Below are positions 1-42,797 of a stretch of 55,098 nucleotides of DNA, piece after piece. How positions within the stretch are numbered: the stretch's first letter is position 1; each line of letters starts with the position of its first letter. Below the pieces are notes generated by a model, which did no database searches, was not told the DNA's origin, and was given only the letters and a program-made list of their open reading frames with translations. Made by a program: the position numbers and the translations under genes. The stretch comes from a virus (Duplodnaviria > Caudoviricetes), in IMG/VR virus record IMGVR_UViG_3300021197_000270, positions 1 to 55,098 of that record. One strand, given 5' to 3'.

Positions 1-40
1 TGCATGTTGTCCTATGTGGGTGTAATGTCGTAGGACATTA
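1..40 (+). promoter_or_regulatory. Copy of the repeated early-promoter core TGCATGTTGTCCT, truncated by the window edge
   Basis: CATGTTGTCYT recurs at 1584, 2746 and 4833, each upstream of a gene with an ATGGAGG RBS. Confidence 0.55.
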
Positions 41-63
41 ACCAGCCAATGGAGGGCTAGACA

Positions 64-285: not shown

Positions 286-341
286 ACTACAAGGCGGCGG
301 CATCATGCCGCCGCCGCAACCTAGCCATGGAGGGCTAAACA

Positions 342-1013: not shown

Positions 1014-1089
1014 GTGCCTAGATTTTATATGCTATAGTCTTACTCCTATAGCAGAGGGCGGCGCCCATAGTCGCCACCAGTATCACCAG

Positions 1090-1133
1090 TCCCGAACCCG
1101 ACCCGACCCGAATTATAGCGAACCCGACCCGAA
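1090..1133 (+). repeat. CCCGA(A/C) repeat cluster 1
   Basis: cccgaacccgacccgacccgaa...aacccgacccgaac directly upstream of a promoter. Confidence 0.85.
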
Positions 1134-1140
1134 CATTTAG

Positions 1141-1169: not shown

Positions 1170-1254
1170 CATTCTTGTAGGGAGTCGCGATGACCGCCGA
1201 CCAGTGATGCGAACAGCTCTCCCTACTCTTTTTAACCTGTCTATGGAGGACAAA

Positions 1255-1524: not shown

Positions 1525-1540
1525 TTCCTCCATAGGACGG

Positions 1541-1568
1541 AAAGAGCGGCAGAAATGTCGCTCTTTTT
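1541..1568 (+). terminator. Intrinsic terminator
   Basis: AAAGAGCGGCA-GAAA-TGTCGCTCTTT plus T run. Confidence 0.8.
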
Positions 1569-1570
1569 GT

Positions 1571-1599
1571 TTGTGTTATGTCTCATGTTGTCTTATAAT
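1571..1599 (+). promoter_or_regulatory. Sigma70-like early promoter
   Basis: TTGTGT-17 bp-TATAAT containing CATGTTGTCT. Confidence 0.75.
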
Positions 1600-1629
1600 C
1601 TTATTATGCAATAACCTATGGAGGAATAG

Positions 1630-2069: not shown

Positions 2070-2520
2070 TTGGTGTCAGAATGTAATCTATGTGTCTCAT
2101 GCAGACAAAAACAAGATGGTGGCGTTGAAAGACGCCATCATCAATGGCGAGATGTGCGACCATATCAAACCCATGCCAGAAGCATTGAAGGATACAACAT
2201 CTCCTTCAGACTCTCCTAATTGGTATGATTGGGCGTGCGATAATTGGGGCACGAAATGGGATGTCTGTTCGCCATGGGATACAGATGAAATCTATAGCGA
2301 TGAGAATGGTGAGACATATGTGTTCAAGTTTGACACAGCATGGTCGCCACCAATCCCTGTATATGATGAGATGATTAAACAGGGATTCAATCTAGTCGCC
2401 AAATATGTGGAGTATGGCATAGGATACCATGGCGAGTATTCCATAGATGGGGATTTCTATCACAATGAAATACAGGATGGGGATGAGATAGACGAACATC
2501 TCCAATCTGAATACGCATAG
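2062..2520 (+). CDS. DUF1281/YubB ferredoxin-like family protein
   Basis: MPNWC.N, WYDW...NWGTKW and FDTAWSPP motifs. Confidence 0.8.
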   Translation: MPNWCQNVIYVSHADKNKMVALKDAIINGEMCDHIKPMPEALKDTTSPSDSPNWYDWACDNWGTKWDVCSPWDTDEIYSDENGETYVFKFDTAWSPPIPVYDEMIKQGFNLVAKYVEYGIGYHGEYSIDGDFYHNEIQDGDEIDEHLQSEYA

Positions 2521-2524
2521 GCAG

Positions 2525-2557
2525 GTGGGGCTGGTTGATGCCAGCCCCATCCTTCTT
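2525..2557 (+). terminator. Probable terminator
   Basis: GTGGGGCTGG/CCAGCCCCAT stem after the stop codon. Confidence 0.65.
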
Positions 2558-2589
2558 GACTCCAGTCACTGACTCGAGTATTTTTTTGT

Positions 2590-2646
2590 TTCTAGTCCTC
2601 CATACTAGAAGTGGCGCCCAGGGCCTAGCCCTGGGCGTTTTTATTT
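2590..2646 (+). ncRNA. Candidate ~55-nt small RNA with anti-SD loop CCUCCAU
   Basis: TTGACT-17-TATTTT (2556-2584); 7-bp stem TTCTAGT/ACTAGAA with loop CCTCCAT; GC terminator 2614-2638 plus T run; no ORF. Confidence 0.6.
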
Positions 2647-2647
2647 G

Positions 2648-2725
2648 TCCCGAATCCCGAACCCGACTCGAGGCAGCTGCTGCTGCCCGACCTGGTCACC
2701 TGTCCTGGTGAACCCGAACCCGAAT
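2648..2725 (+). repeat. CCCGA repeat cluster 2 with CTCGAG, CAGCTG and CCTGG sites
   Basis: cccgaatcccgaacccgactcgag...cctgg...cctggtgaacccgaacccgaa. Confidence 0.85.
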
Positions 2726-2732
2726 CTTTTTG

Positions 2733-2761
2733 TTGTGTTGTGTTGCATGTTGTCCTATAAT
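2733..2761 (+). promoter_or_regulatory. Sigma70-like early promoter
   Basis: TTGTGT-17 bp-TATAAT containing TGCATGTTGTCC. Confidence 0.8.
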
Positions 2762-2788
2762 GTTTAAGTAAACTATGGAGGTTACAAA

Positions 2789-3391
2789 ATGCTTAAAATA
2801 TCAAACATGACAGGCAAACTTGCCGGATTCAAAGCGTTGAATACAAACACGCTAACGAATCCATATTGCCAAAAAATGAATGCTGTTGATGATGACAACA
2901 TCATTTGCAAACATTGCTATAGCGTTGAGATGCTGAACGGATTACGCAAAAATTGCGCTCCATCATGGCAACGAAACAGCGACACGCTATCGGGCGGATT
3001 GATTCCCCCGCATATGTTACCGACAATCCTAGACGCATTTTTCAGGTTTTCCGGCCATGGCGAATTAATAAACCTGACTATGCTGGAAAATTTCCACAAC
3101 ATCACGTTACACAATCCGCATTGCTCTTTTGCATTGTGGACAAAGCGCAAGGGCTGGATTCGCAAATTTTACAGCCAGCATGATAAGCCGGCAAACCTGA
3201 TTCTTATCTATAGCAACCCGCGCATTGACGCGGTAATGGACAACCCGCCGGCGTTCTTTGACCGGACATTCAACAACGTATCACCGGACAGTGACGCGCC
3301 ACAAAATTGCACCGGCCAAAAGTGCCGCGATTGCTTGCTATGCTATACGCCAAACAATGGCGTTACTCAAATTGTGGAGGCAGTGAAATGA
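2789..3391 (+). CDS. GP88-like Cys-rich (radical-SAM-like Fe-S) protein
   Basis: C...CKHCY, FRFSGHGEL, FALWTKR and C-terminal C...CxxCxxCY pattern. Confidence 0.6.
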   Translation: MLKISNMTGKLAGFKALNTNTLTNPYCQKMNAVDDDNIICKHCYSVEMLNGLRKNCAPSWQRNSDTLSGGLIPPHMLPTILDAFFRFSGHGELINLTMLENFHNITLHNPHCSFALWTKRKGWIRKFYSQHDKPANLILIYSNPRIDAVMDNPPAFFDRTFNNVSPDSDAPQNCTGQKCRDCLLCYTPNNGVTQIVEAVK

Positions 3392-3531
3392 ACAAAGAAG
3401 ATATCATCATGCATATAAAGCACATTGTCGTTGAACAATGCGAAAAGGAACCGGAAGAGCGGGATATATTCGCAGCCTTCGGCGCCCTGATCGACAAGAT
3501 CGAGGACAGCATAAAGGAGGAGCAGGCCTAG
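3388..3531 (+). CDS. Hypothetical protein (47 aa)
   Basis: ATGA overlap and GGAGG RBS. Confidence 0.6.
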   Translation: MNKEDIIMHIKHIVVEQCEKEPEERDIFAAFGALIDKIEDSIKEEQA

Positions 3532-3546
3532 GCCTGCTTTTCTTTT
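3521..3546. terminator. Palindromic terminator at convergent gene junction
   Basis: Perfect palindrome AGCAGGCCTAGGCCTGCT followed by T-rich tail. Confidence 0.65.
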
Positions 3547-4046
3547 GCCTCGAGCCCAGGTTGCTGTAACCCTGGTACTGGGGCACCAGTCCCCAGCTGC
3601 TCTTGAGCCGAATCCCCGACTCCCGAACCCCGAAGCTGCTCCAGTACCGATTCTAAGTGCTTGATCCCCGACTCCCGAACCTGGTGCCACAGGTCCTGGT
3701 GACCCGAACCCCGAAACAAGTGCCCCGAACGTAGGCCATTGCGCCCGATTTCAAGGCTCTGGGCGCCCTCAAACAAAATTAGGTCACCCGAAGAGAGGTG
3801 CTTAACCAAGATGAATGACAAGCCGCCATTACGCGAATACGCGGTATTCCACGCTATTTGCTGTGGGGACAGGCGAACAGAATTGTTTTTAGTTGTTTTT
3901 AATTCTATCCAGAATACAAGCCCAGACCATGCAAAATGTACGTCAGGCACGCCGCCACCATGGCGGTTCTCAATCCGTGTTGGATAACAGTTCTTCGGCA
4001 GATTCCTGCGGACGGTGTTCCAAAAGTTCGCCTCCGGTGTCGGCAT
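3528..4046 (-). CDS. VRR-NUC/Holliday-junction-resolvase-like PD-(D/E)xK nuclease with repeat-encoded C-terminal tail
   Basis: RIEN...GVPDV...FWIELK...LSPQQIAW. Confidence 0.8.
   Translation of the reverse strand: MPTPEANFWNTVRRNLPKNCYPTRIENRHGGGVPDVHFAWSGLVFWIELKTTKNNSVRLSPQQIAWNTAYSRNGGLSFILVKHLSSGDLILFEGAQSLEIGRNGLRSGHLFRGSGHQDLWHQVRESGIKHLESVLEQLRGSGVGDSAQEQLGTGAPVPGLQQPGLEAKEKQA
3608..3730 (+). repeat. CCCGA repeat cluster 3, including an exact 18-bp direct repeat
   Basis: ATCCCCGACTCCCGAACC at 3612-3629 and 3664-3681. Confidence 0.85.
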
Positions 4047-4548
4047 CAGTTATCTCCTCATACTCGCCTTCGATGAAGGCTTGGGGATATTCTCGCCGGA
4101 GTTGAGATAAACGAGCGGTGATCTCTTCACGCGATAGATCGTCCAACTGATGGATTTGTTCTCGCCTGTCTACGGTCAAGCCACCAAGGGCGGATCGTAT
4201 CTTCTCAGCATTGATCGCGGCTGAGAATTGACCAGCCTCTTCTGCGCCGGACGATAGTTCGTGCAAGCGTTTGAGTTGACCTGTTACGGTCACTCCATAT
4301 CGCCGTTCTCGTTCTTCTCTTAACTCTTGGATATAATCGACTAGCTGGGGGAACTTCTTGCCTGCCAAAAGGTGGCCTGCAATGGACGCAGCACTATTGG
4401 TTGCGTAGCCAGCTTTTCTAGCGCACTCCGCATTGGAGTATATACCTTCAACATAGTAACGAGCGAACTCACGCTGACGGTTCGTCAGTTTTCGTCCAGT
4501 CTCGGCCTCTATGTCATCTGCAAGAATATCTGTCTTCTTGTTACACAT
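3970..4548 (-). CDS. terS: Terminase small subunit
   Basis: N-terminal LT.RQ..F...Y......N...AR.AGY HTH typical of Terminase_2. Confidence 0.75.
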   Translation of the reverse strand: MCNKKTDILADDIEAETGRKLTNRQREFARYYVEGIYSNAECARKAGYATNSAASIAGHLLAGKKFPQLVDYIQELREERERRYGVTVTGQLKRLHELSSGAEEAGQFSAAINAEKIRSALGGLTVDRREQIHQLDDLSREEITARLSQLRREYPQAFIEGEYEEITDADTGGELLEHRPQESAEELLSNTD

Positions 4549-4821: not shown

Positions 4822-4850
4822 TTATGTTGTTGCATGTTGTCCTCTAGTAT
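4822..4850 (+). promoter_or_regulatory. Promoter for the accessory operon
   Basis: TGCATGTTGTCCT core; TTATGT-17-TAGTAT possible. Confidence 0.55.
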
Positions 4851-4885
4851 GTAATAACAATTAATTATCAGTAATGGAGGACGAT

Positions 4886-41977: not shown

Positions 41978-42604
41978 TTAGGCTTCGTAGCCCATCAGCT
42001 CAATAAAGAGTTTACCAGCAGTGTAGTCCGCGTCTGTCGCCGCACCTGTTGTTAGATACAAAAACTGATCAGCGGCAGGAACAGCCGAGAAATAAACCTT
42101 GCTTCCAAGAGTTGCGTCACCCGCGTTAACAAGAAGTGTTTCTGTCAAATCACCAATTGCCCCGTCCTCAACACCTGTACCCTCTGTGGCAGAGTGGATA
42201 TTGATGTCGGGGTCGCCGCCAGCCGGAGCCTCAAAACATTCCATGCTACCCGTCAGGATTGTACCGTTTTTAGCAGCAGTGATCTGACCAATGTGACAAA
42301 CAAGTGCTGTACCGTTTACACCAATGATGTCGCCAGAGCCTGTTGAACGCAGACCTGTAAGATCAATAAGAATACGAGTGGTGATGATGCCGCCCATACG
42401 CTGAACTGCGCTGCGGTAGATAGTGCCGGAGCCGGTTGTGATACCCGTGCCGGCCTCTACAGCCATCGTGTTAGCATCAAAAGAAGATACACCAGTTGAA
42501 CTGATGCTTGAGAGAGTTGTAAACGCGCCTGTGGTTGCGTTCTCACTTACAGAGGTAAAGCCGCCCTTTGAGCGCACTGCACCTGAAAAGGTAGTAGTAG
42601 CCAT
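41978..42604 (-). CDS. Capsid decoration-like protein
   Basis: MA.TTFSG.VRS..GF N-terminus; directly after MCP. Confidence 0.7.
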   Translation of the reverse strand: MATTTFSGAVRSKGGFTSVSENATTGAFTTLSSISSTGVSSFDANTMAVEAGTGITTGSGTIYRSAVQRMGGIITTRILIDLTGLRSTGSGDIIGVNGTALVCHIGQITAAKNGTILTGSMECFEAPAGGDPDINIHSATEGTGVEDGAIGDLTETLLVNAGDATLGSKVYFSAVPAADQFLYLTTGAATDADYTAGKLFIELMGYEA

Positions 42605-42671
42605 GTAATTCTCCTGTCGTGGCTAGTGTCAGATCCACATTAGATCTGTCAGGGTATAAACACCATACACG

Positions 42672-42720
42672 AAAAAAAGCGAAGCCGCAATTGGCGGCTC
42701 CGAGTTTAGGGAGGAACTAC
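42672..42720 (-). ncRNA. Candidate anti-SD hairpin plus terminator (CCUCCC loop)
   Basis: Minus strand AGTT-CCTCCCTA-AACT, then GAGCCGC..GCGGCTT hairpin and T7. Confidence 0.45.
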
Positions 42721-42777: not shown

Positions 42778-42797
42778 ATCCTAGCTCTTAACTAGGG

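What the first reader, a model, noticed from the sequence alone, without database searches (positions are those of the whole stretch)
2556..2646. Self-contained small RNA whose loop is complementary to the phage's own early RBS
Seen: between two terminators lie TTGACT-17-TATTTT, a 7-bp stem exposing CCUCCAU, and a strong terminator, with no ORF. CCUCCAU is the exact complement of AUGGAGG, the RBS at about 49, 328, 1243, 1618, 2775 and 4874 (mostly first genes of early units). Established: alphaproteobacterial sRNAs such as AbcR and cuckoo/CcsR use CCUCC loops to block RBSs. Inference: a phage-encoded anti-SD sRNA that shuts off early translation, silences host mRNAs or excludes related phages.
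Basis: partly seen in the sequence, partly recalled or inferred. Interest (0 to 1): 0.85.

Follow-up and report, generated by a model that had tools for sequence, protein, structure and literature searches.

The report
Phage anti-ribosome-site RNA hairpin module
An uncultured marine phage and its relatives keep a small RNA hairpin next to a transcription stop signal; its open loop mirrors the ribosome-landing sequence of the phage's own early genes, so it probably brakes their translation, though no transcript or target has been shown.

Summary
The hairpin (2589-2611, loop CCUCCAU) and its terminator (2613-2648) are real. They fold far better than shuffles. The module recurs upstream of the same gene in 36 of 80 related viral contigs. 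Loop CCUCCA is invariant in 32 of 32 distinct copies, while the stem changes by compensatory substitutions. G.U wobbles (22 against 0 A.C) show a plus-strand RNA.

ATGGAGG is over-represented (13 against 6.3 expected) and serves six early genes. Loop position 7 tracks RBS position -2 across lineages.

The "self-contained gene" part is not supported. The sigma-70-like promoter is a chance-level match and is not conserved. Related copies sit in 3'UTRs: at 1525 here, and directly after the capsid stop codon in relatives.

Best reading: a terminator-proximal anti-SD regulatory RNA, acting as a 3'UTR or as a released small RNA. RNA-library contigs cover it but cannot prove transcription. It belongs to no Rfam family. 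The scan has noted comparable anti-SD hairpins in other phage genomes.

The parts
2525..2550 (+). GC-rich hairpin just after the stop codon (2518-2520) of the upstream gene. Its tail is mixed U/C, so it is a weak terminator or a stabiliser ('T1').
   Evidence: Fold; not listed by the terminator scan; listed by my looser script.
2556..2584 (+). Promoter-like hexamers TTGACT-17-TATTTT. They overlap an imperfect hairpin plus U run (2559-2579 and following), which is a clean hairpin plus U run in relatives.
   Evidence: It is a 9-of-12 match at chance frequency and is not conserved: the best sigma-70-like score reaches 8 of 12 or more in 8 of 28 distinct upstream regions against 13% of shuffles, and 4 of 28 have no candidate.
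2589..2611 (+). Anti-SD hairpin: 8-bp stem with 7-nt loop CCUCCAU (2597-2603).
   Evidence: Conserved with compensatory changes in 28 distinct sequences. Loop CCUCCA invariant in 32 of 32. 22 G.U and 0 A.C cells.
2613..2648 (+). Intrinsic terminator: 12-pair stem, 3-nt loop and U tract.
   Evidence: 10 of 12 pairs show changes on both sides in relatives.
2641..2725 (+). CCCGA(A/C) repeat island between the terminator and the next early promoter (TTGTGT 2733-2738, TATAAT 2756-2761). Its start is nearly invariant next to the module.
   Evidence: columns C66-A70 nearly invariant.
49..55 (+). Early RBS AUGGAGG (gene start 64), a candidate target.
   Evidence: seed duplex rank 2 of 115.
327..333 (+). 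Early RBS AUGGAGG in the loop of a 5-bp hairpin (gene start 342), a candidate target.
   Evidence: rank 3 of 115.
1243..1249 (+). Early RBS AUGGAGG (gene start 1255), with 10 nt of complementarity to the hairpin loop and flanks.
   Evidence: rank 1 of 115 at -17.8 kcal/mol.
1618..1624 (+). RBS of the first gene of the unit that ends at this module (start 1630), with 9 nt of complementarity (1616-1624 against 2596-2604).
2775..2781 (+). RBS of the next unit's gene (start 2789).
4874..4880 (+). Early RBS AUGGAGG (start 4886).
1525..1571 (+). Sister element. UUCCUCCAUAGG lies directly after a stop codon and is followed by a terminator (1536-1571). It is a 12-nt complement of the next RBS (1615-1626).
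   Evidence: It is conserved behind different upstream genes in many loci.
42671..42718 (-). Third element, downstream of the capsid gene's terminator: a 4-bp mini-hairpin showing CCUCCC (42714-42709), then a terminator.
42780..42796 (-). Hairpin directly after the capsid stop codon. In relatives its loop is CCUCCAU, CCUCCAA or CCUCCAG; in this window the loop is UUAAGAG.

Best explanation
The element is a conserved plus-strand RNA module: a short hairpin that displays CCUCCA(U), followed within 1-4 nt by an intrinsic terminator. It sits at the 3' end of an early transcription unit.

It most likely works by base pairing. The loop, with a few flanking bases, anneals to the (A/U)UGGAGG ribosome-binding sites of the phage's early genes. 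Many of those sites are themselves shown in small hairpin loops, so a loop-loop 'kissing' start is plausible. Pairing would block 30S binding and so limit or shut off early translation.

The RNA is probably made as the tail of the upstream early mRNA, by read-through of the weak hairpins at 2525-2579. It may then act as that 3'UTR or as a released ~55-60-nt fragment. An internal promoter is possible in some relatives.

Shown here: the structure, the strand, conservation of the loop, complementarity, enrichment of the target motif, and co-variation at one loop/RBS position. Inferred: transcription, processing, pairing in vivo, and repression.
For: - **Structure.** The fold has z = -6.4. Covariance model R1 finds the module in 36 of 80 related loci, always on the gene strand and 145-300 nt upstream of the same gene. 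On 28 distinct sequences, 94.1% of cells pair, 14 of 20 pairs change on both sides, and 0 of 500 shuffles reach this; slid controls give 38-54% paired.
- **Strand.** 22 G.U against 0 A.C cells in the hairpin, and 39 against 1 in the terminator.
- **Loop.** CCUCCA is invariant in 32 of 32 distinct copies although at least 11 different stems occur.
- **Target motif.** ATGGAGG occurs 13 times against 6.3 expected. Six early genes use it as their RBS. UGGAGG precedes 12 of 40 mechanical starts on the plus-strand list but only 2 of 41 on the minus-strand list.
- **Pairing energy.** Seed duplexes with the start regions of genes at 1255, 64 and 342 rank 1-3 of 115 (-17 to -18 kcal/mol).
- **Co-variation.** Contigs with loop U7 have 76 AUGGAGG to 11 UUGGAGG distinct RBS contexts; contigs with loop A7 have 25 to 16 (odds ratio 4.4, p = 0.001, not corrected for phylogeny). 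All 3 A7 lineages exceed all 7 U7 lineages (exact one-sided p = 0.008).
- **RBS hairpins.** 58 of 141 distinct RBS contexts have a stem of 4 bp or more around the UGGAG loop, against 19% of shuffles.
- **Sister elements in 3'UTRs.**. 32 of 69 distinct capsid 3'UTRs carry CCUCC within 70 nt of the stop, against a base rate of 0.042.
- **Resemblance.** Sub-threshold Rfam matches are all to sRNAs built as a hairpin plus a terminator. That these sRNAs act through anti-SD-type loops is recalled, not taken from a call.
Against: - No transcript ends are known. The only RNA-library evidence is short Logan contigs: one of 161 nt, identical to 2531-2691, at depth 8.7. It crosses the terminator, so it may be DNA carry-over or read-through.
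- Any CCUCC loop matches any strong SD, so part of the complementarity is generic.
- The six AUGGAGG sites may share ancestry. The initiation regions at 49 and 327 are near-duplicates, which inflates the apparent enrichment.
- The loop/RBS co-variation rests on few lineages. Two A7 lineages still have mostly AUGGAGG, and a G7 variant (L031) shows no matching RBS shift.
- In this window the capsid-3'UTR copy has lost the CCUCC loop.
- In many more distant relatives the capsid-3'UTR CCUCC is buried in a stem opposite a GGAGG-like arm. My crude upstream-motif test assigned 20 of the 32 CCUCC-bearing 3'UTRs to this type (sequences). That fits a trans-acting seed less well.
- The cultured relatives HTVC023P and DSL-LC04 lack the element at the one place I looked.
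Confidence: 0.55

Rival explanations
1. Independent sRNA gene. Its own sigma-70 promoter (TTGACT-17-TATTTT) starts transcription at the hairpin base, giving a ~55-60-nt primary transcript that acts in trans on phage or host mRNAs, or on those of competing phages.
For: The hexamers and spacing are present. An AT-rich stretch with a TAnnnT hexamer lies 3-10 nt upstream of the hairpin in most relatives, and it is TATAAT in L038, L042, L043 and L049. Upstream hairpins with U runs would otherwise stop incoming polymerases.
Against: Promoter-like sites are at chance frequency in this region (10 found, 10.7 expected). The -35 is not conserved. The best scores barely exceed shuffles, and four distinct relatives (the L004 type) have no candidate at all. 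The same module occurs 4-8 nt after the capsid stop codon in relatives, and the CCUCCAU motif sits 2 nt after a stop codon at 1525, both without room for a promoter.
Confidence: 0.2
2. Cis-acting translational control within one RNA. Either the 3'UTR loop pairs with the RBS at the 5' end of the same early mRNA (icaR-like 5'-3' pairing), or in read-through transcripts it masks the RBS of the next unit, so that the next gene is translated only from its own promoter.
For: The unit that ends here starts with an RBS that gives 9 nt of complementarity to the loop (1616-1624 against 2596-2604). At the sister element, the predicted minimum-energy fold of a read-through RNA (1515-1640) pairs the 12-nt anti-SD with the next RBS across the terminator and promoter (-44.9 kcal/mol, z = -6.3). 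The icaR precedent is described in the abstract of PMC3868564.
Against: Own-unit complementarity (9 nt) is no better than complementarity to another unit (10 nt to the RBS at 1243). The capsid-3'UTR copies in relatives are followed by a gene whose RBS, in the Mu-gpT-DE leader, is not UGGAGG. A covarying hairpin that presents the motif in a loop is not needed for simple cis masking.
Confidence: 0.2
3. A protein-binding or processing hairpin (an operator for a phage RNA-binding protein, an RNase site or a stability element) whose loop is read as a shape rather than by base pairing.
For: An invariant loop on a freely varying stem is the usual signature of protein-recognised hairpins (recalled: MS2 operator, lambda boxB). 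The position next to terminators fits roles in termination, antitermination or stability.
Against: The chance that a fixed 7-mer is the exact complement of the phage's over-represented early RBS heptamer is about 1 in 16,000. The loop-7/RBS-2 co-variation is not expected under this reading. No candidate RNA-binding protein was identified: a Pfam scan of eight nearby ORFs gave none.
Confidence: 0.1
4. A by-product of cassette shuffling. The module is an inverted copy of an 'RBS hairpin plus GC hairpin' intergenic segment, carried along with mobile terminator-promoter cassettes and having no regulatory role of its own.
For: Model R1 also hits the minus strand of the region at about 290-345 and its homologues at 20-28 bits. 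This is the mirror image: a GC hairpin next to a hairpin with AUGGAG in its loop. The sister element plus the following promoter is a nearly fixed cassette behind different genes. Recalled precedent: the PeSL cassettes of T4-type phages.
Against: Origin by inversion does not explain why, across at least 11 stem variants and diverged flanks, the loop stays invariant and the stem stays paired. That pattern is purifying selection on an RNA.
Confidence: 0.07

Closest known systems
c4 antisense RNA of phages P1/P7 (Rfam C4)
   Same: Phage-encoded. Short complementary sequences presented in RNA loops pair around the ribosome-binding site of a phage mRNA and block translation (passages of review PMC12197685).
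   Different: No Rfam C4 match even at E <= 10. c4 targets one specific operon with specific sequences and underlies immunity of a temperate phage. Here a generic-looking anti-SD heptamer matches many early genes of an apparently lytic, HTVC023P-like podovirus.
icaR mRNA 5'-3'UTR pairing, Staphylococcus aureus
   Same: An anti-SD pyrimidine motif in a 3'UTR pairs with the SD region and interferes with initiation (abstract of PMC3868564).
   Different: icaR is a single bacterial gene with a UCCCCUG motif acting on its own mRNA. Here the motif is in a covarying hairpin loop next to the terminator, is repeated at several unit ends, and could reach many RBSs.
Cuckoo / CcsR-type sRNAs of Alphaproteobacteria
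   Same: Variable stems with a conserved anti-SD-like loop motif (abstract of PMC4615179).
   Different: That family is defined by 2-4 adjacent hairpins, each with CCUCCUCCC. Here there is one hairpin with CCUCCA(U), on a phage.
Betaproteobacteria toxic small RNA (Rfam RF02278)
   Same: The best Rfam resemblance. A ~57-67-nt RNA made of one hairpin with a C/U-rich loop plus a Rho-independent terminator (alignment; lengths and terminators in the table of PMC4603805).
   Different: 24.5 bits against a gathering score of 50. Those are chromosomal genes of Burkholderia-type bacteria, whose native function PMC4603805 says is unknown.
T4 RegB / RegA control of early mRNAs (recalled, not checked in a call)
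   Same: A phage singles out its early messages through their ribosome-binding sites in order to shut them off.
   Different: Those are proteins (an endonuclease and a repressor). Here the proposed effector is RNA.

Membership tests
Rfam RF02278 Betaproteobacteria toxic sRNA | Covariance-model score at or above the curated gathering score (50 bits) | tested here: not met
   24.5 bits, E = 0.0017 on a 91-nt search. Not listed at gathering threshold.
Rfam RF02278 Betaproteobacteria toxic sRNA | Single hairpin with a C/U-rich loop followed by an intrinsic terminator | tested here: met
   The alignment places the loop on the model's loop and the terminator on its terminator. This shows a shared design, not membership.
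Cuckoo / CcsR (ar14) sRNAs | 2-4 adjacent hairpins, each loop carrying CCUCCUCCC (abstract of PMC4615179) | tested here: not met
   One hairpin with loop CCUCCAU. No such family appears among the Rfam matches at E <= 10.
C4 antisense RNA (P1/P7) | Match to the Rfam C4 model | tested here: not met
   Absent from matches at E <= 10 on 2450-2800 and at E <= 1 on 2570-2660.
3'UTR anti-SD elements (icaR type) | Anti-SD motif lies in the 3'UTR of the same mRNA whose SD it pairs with | tested here: inconclusive
   The motif lies 77 nt after the stop codon, behind two weak hairpins. It has 9 nt of complementarity to the unit's first RBS. Whether one RNA carries both is unknown.
3'UTR anti-SD elements (icaR type) | Pairing blocks initiation and creates an RNase III substrate | not testable with these tools
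   Needs toeprinting and RNase assays.
Trans-acting base-pairing sRNA (generic class) | A discrete transcript with defined 5' and 3' ends | tested here: inconclusive
   The terminator is clear. The promoter is not conserved. RNA-library contigs cover the element but cannot show ends.
Trans-acting base-pairing sRNA (generic class) | Conserved accessible seed complementary to its targets | tested here: met
   Invariant loop; early start regions rank at the top; loop-7/RBS-2 association.

The most novel reading that the evidence does not exclude
This marine phage lineage runs an RNA-only timing circuit. Anti-SD hairpins are carried on the tails of early messages and, in most relatives, on the very abundant capsid message. 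These hairpins kiss the AUGGAG loops in which early ribosome-binding sites are displayed. Early translation is thereby throttled by its own output and then switched off when late transcription floods the cell. This would be a functional RNA counterpart of T4 RegB/RegA, with the loop and the RBS co-evolving.
Probability: 0.3. Interest if true: 0.85.

Novelty: new variant of a known kind. Interest (0 to 1): 0.64.

Why it matters
Anti-SD regulatory RNAs are known from bacteria, and RBS-targeting antisense RNA is known from temperate phages such as P1. My four literature searches found no description of a conserved hairpin-terminator module aimed at a lytic phage's own early ribosome-binding sites.

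The carriers belong to a large, widespread group of marine phages. At least 374 contigs encode relatives of the neighbouring gene, and at least 598 encode relatives of the capsid.

If the pairing is real, it gives a simple and testable mechanism for early-gene feedback or shut-off without a protein regulator. It would also be a natural example of loop/RBS co-evolution and a compact part for synthetic translation control. In addition, it would explain why these phages keep an unusual U before GGAGG in their early start sites.

Tried and rejected
- **DNA search of the phage collection.** A search with 2300-3000 found nothing.
- **RNAalifold on the raw MAFFT alignment.** It predicted no pairs because stems of different length were out of register. 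I replaced this with a covariance-model alignment.
- **Broad pattern scan of viral contigs** (AGTCCTCCA, a gap, then CCCGA). 119 were stored, and only 3 showed any 5-bp stem; all 3 looked like chance. It says nothing about the family's range.
- **Metatranscriptome contigs.** Four runs from one study were laid. They cover the element at low depth (one identical 161-nt contig, and one contig of an L004-like variant) but cannot show ends, strand or expression. Parts of the stretch without cover are no evidence.
- **Cultured relatives.** The capsid 3'UTRs of HTVC023P and DSL-LC04 lack a CCUCC hairpin. Only that one place was read in each.
- **Host identity.** Capsid relatives in genome bins carry labels from many phyla. 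Three of the four closest bins by best-segment identity (L287, L288 and L301; the L301 match covers only residues 1-175) are labelled Rhodobacteraceae or a genus I recall as Rhodobacteraceae. These are most likely mis-binned phage contigs, so I take no host from them.
- **Minus-strand gene using ATGGAGG as its RBS.** Rejected: a stop follows after three codons and there is no start codon in range.
- **Coding ORF 2535-2711.** Rejected because of indels and paired stem changes in relatives.
- **tRNA-like anticodon arm.** Considered and dropped on reading the loop (position 33 is C); no tRNA scan was run.

Full report
**What the window is.** The window is a whole, about 95% complete viral contig of 55,098 bp. 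Its large terminase, DNA polymerase A and capsid are nearest to Pelagibacter phages HTVC023P and HTVC027P, phage 023Pt_psg01 and the gammaproteobacterial phage DSL-LC04, at 47-70% protein identity. It is therefore a distant, uncultured member of that marine group, and its host is unknown. Related capsid genes in genome bins carry labels from many phyla and give no reliable host.

**The observation.**
- TTGACT (2556-2561), 17 nt, TATTTT (2579-2584).
- A hairpin at 2589-2611 with the 7-nt loop CCUCCAU.
- A 12-pair terminator at 2613-2639 followed by a U tract.
- The 66-nt stretch folds at -29.9 kcal/mol, against -15.0 +/- 2.3 for shuffles (0 of 200 as good).
- ATGGAGG occurs 13 times against 6.3 expected (0 of 100 shuffles reach 13). 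Six plus-strand copies in the first 5 kb sit 5-8 nt before start codons.

Two parts of the description are weaker.
- The promoter-like site is a 9-of-12 match of a kind found at chance frequency here (10 found, 10.7 expected).
- The upstream 'terminator' is a GC hairpin (2525-2550) with a mixed U/C tail, which the tool scan did not list.

Two possible objections fail.
- A mechanical 58-aa ORF crosses the element, but relatives differ by 1-, 2- and 5-nt indels and by paired stem changes, so it is not coding.
- No minus-strand gene can use the ATGGAGG. A stop follows after three codons, and the next ATG is about 50 nt away.

**Conservation and structure.** The neighbouring 200-aa gene (2789-3391) has at least 374 relatives in viral contigs, of which the best 80 were fetched. 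A covariance model built from 12 copies finds the module in 36 of the 80 loci. It is always on the gene strand and 145-300 nt upstream of that gene. Four loci are cut too short to tell, and 40 lack the module.

Across 32 distinct copies the loop core CCUCCA is invariant, while mean column identity is only 65%. On the model-fitted alignment of 28 distinct sequences:
- 94.1% of cells pair.
- 14 of 20 pairs show changes on both sides. Four of these are in the 8-pair hairpin; one pair, for example, is seen as UA, AU, GC and CG.
- 0 of 500 shuffles reach these values.
- Sliding the partners by 1-3 columns drops pairing to 38-54%.

The alignment was fitted to the structure, which favours it. However, the stems can also be read directly in the raw sequences. 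Wobble pairs identify the strand: 22 G.U and 0 A.C in the hairpin, and 39 against 1 in the terminator.

**How the RNA is made.** The data do not support a conserved private promoter.
- In 28 distinct upstream regions, the best sigma-70-like match reaches 8 of 12 or more in 8 cases, against 13% of shuffles. Four regions have no candidate.
- In the L004, L010 and L045 types, the stretch that holds the window's hexamers is a clean hairpin followed by a U run.
- An AT-rich stretch directly upstream of the hairpin is conserved, and in one sub-lineage it reads TATAAT. It could be a -10 box, a processing site or an Hfq-type site.
- Sister elements argue for a 3'UTR origin. UUCCUCCAUAGG lies 2 nt after a stop codon at 1525-1536 and runs into the terminator at 1536-1571. 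This element is almost fixed behind different upstream genes in many loci.
- In complete relatives the same kind of hairpin (loops CCUCCAU, CCUCCAA or CCUCCAG) plus a terminator follows the capsid stop codon by only 4-8 nt.
- Of 69 distinct capsid 3'UTRs, 32 carry CCUCC within 70 nt of the stop, against a base rate of 0.042.
- In this window that hairpin has the loop UUAAGAG instead, but a CCUCCC mini-hairpin plus terminator follows.
- Within the window, CCUCC lies within 35 nt upstream of 2 of 11 plus-strand and 3 of 11 minus-strand terminator-like hairpins. Of the three on the minus strand, only the one at 42702 looks genuine. Base rates are 0.023 and 0.036.

RNA-library evidence is weak. 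In four metatranscriptome runs from one study, one 161-nt contig is identical to 2531-2691 (depth 8.7), and one contig carries an L004-like variant. Contigs cannot show ends or strand, and the first one crosses the terminator.

**The link to the ribosome-binding sites.** The loop is the exact complement of the heptamer used by six early genes.
- With flanking bases, the complementarity reaches 10 nt to the RBS at 1243 and 9 nt to the RBS at 1618.
- Seed-only duplex energies put the start regions of the genes at 1255, 64 and 342 first to third among 115 candidates (-17 to -18 kcal/mol). These values ignore the cost of opening structures.
- UGGAGG precedes 12 of 40 mechanically listed starts on the plus strand, which carries the early and replication genes. 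It precedes only 2 of 41 on the minus strand, which carries mostly late genes. The lists include false ORFs.
- The U is not what pairing with a canonical anti-SD would favour (recalled), but it does match the invariant A of the loop.
- Across relatives, loop position 7 and RBS position -2 tend to change together. Contigs with loop U7 hold 76 AUGGAGG and 11 UUGGAGG distinct RBS contexts; contigs with loop A7 hold 25 and 16 (odds ratio 4.4, p = 0.001, uncorrected).
- Grouped by stem type, all three A7 lineages have a higher UUGGAGG share (0.20, 0.37, 1.0) than all seven U7 lineages (0-0.19). The exact one-sided p is 0.008.
- This is suggestive only. The lineages are few, two A7 lineages still use mostly AUGGAGG, and the single G7 variant shows no matching shift.
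- The early RBSs are often themselves in small hairpin loops. 58 of 141 distinct contexts have a stem of 4 bp or more around UGGAG, against 19% of shuffles, and the stems vary in a compensatory way, such as GCC/GGC, GUC/GAC and AUC/GAU. This suits a loop-loop start of pairing.

**Mechanism and rivals.** I rank the readings as follows.
- **Terminator-proximal anti-SD regulatory RNA that represses early translation (0.55).** It would be made mainly as the tail of the early message and act as that tail or as a released fragment.
See the evidence above on how the RNA is made.
- **Cis masking (0.2).** This could be own 5'-3' pairing as in icaR (abstract) or silencing of the next gene in read-through RNA. 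It is thermodynamically plausible for the sister element at 1525. It cannot be separated from trans action by sequence alone, because all early RBSs share the heptamer. The capsid-3'UTR copies argue against pure cis masking, since the next gene's RBS in the Mu-gpT-DE leader is not UGGAGG.
- **Protein-recognised hairpin (0.1).** It does not explain the exact complementarity or the co-variation.
- **Neutral relic of an inverted RBS segment (0.07).** The model does hit the mirror image of the 290-345 region, which may reflect the element's origin. It does not explain an invariant loop on at least 11 different stems.

**Comparison with known systems.** No Rfam family reaches its threshold in this region.
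- The best resemblance is the Betaproteobacteria toxic small RNA (24.5 bits against 50), which has the same design of one C/U-loop hairpin plus a terminator (PMC4603805 passages).
- Cuckoo RNAs need 2-4 hairpins with CCUCCUCCC loops (abstract of PMC4615179), so this is not a member.
- The c4 RNA of P1/P7 is the nearest phage precedent for loops that pair around an RBS (review passages), but there is no model match.
- Four full-text searches found no description of such a module in phages. Subscription journals are largely outside that library.
- The scan's own notes list 38 findings that hold all my search words on anti-SD loops in phage RNAs, in at least 38 genomes. The 8 shown were comparable hairpins in other phage genomes. 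I did not test those.

**Verdict.** The anti-SD reading is the best supported but remains unproven. The 'self-contained gene' part is probably wrong. I rate it a new variant of a known kind, with interest 0.64.

Noticed in passing
window 42602-42654 (-): A clear Rfam Mu-gpT-DE RNA (66 bits against a gathering score of 49). It forms the leader, RBS and start of the gene after the capsid gene. It recurs downstream of the capsid gene in many relatives (seen in the sequences).
   Followed up: partly
window 1090-1135 and 2641-2725 (+): Tandem CCCGA(A/C) hexamer repeats sit directly after intrinsic terminators and upstream of early promoters. They are conserved next to the module in relatives. Being C-rich, G-poor and unstructured, they could serve as a Rho-loading back-up terminator or as protein-binding sites. 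This is inference only.
   Followed up: no
window 44-60, 322-338, 1238-1253; related loci L002-L049: Early ribosome-binding sites are shown in loops of 4-7-bp hairpins with compensatory stem variants. 58 of 141 have a stem of 4 bp or more, against 19% of shuffles. AUGGA in a loop also fits the recalled CsrA-type ANGGA site.
   Followed up: partly
window 1525-1626 (+): A 12-nt inverted repeat (1525-1536 against 1615-1626) brackets a terminator-promoter cassette. In a read-through RNA it is predicted to mask the next RBS. The cassette is nearly identical behind different genes in many loci, which is reminiscent of mobile regulatory cassettes.
   Followed up: partly
loci L204-L283, 3'UTR of capsid gene: In more distant relatives the capsid 3'UTR hairpin pairs a GGAGG-like arm with a CCUCC(U)CCC arm, forming an intramolecular SD/anti-SD helix just before the terminator. 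My crude upstream-motif test assigned 20 of the 32 CCUCC-bearing 3'UTRs to this type (sequences).
   Followed up: partly
window 1031-1052 (+): A 7-bp hairpin (GCUAUAG, an 8-nt loop, CUAUAGC) lies after the terminator at 984-1009. One similar hairpin with a slightly different loop was seen in relative L012. Its function is unknown.
   Followed up: no
window 1-30 (+): The contig starts inside an early-promoter-like sequence that matches those at about 2745-2761 and about 4836-4860. The record is therefore probably cut or permuted within a promoter.
   Followed up: no
window 3528-4548 (-): A small terminase subunit (Pfam Terminase_2, E = 1.8e-9) and a 172-aa ORF lie on the opposite strand, in the middle of the plus-strand early region.
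   Followed up: no
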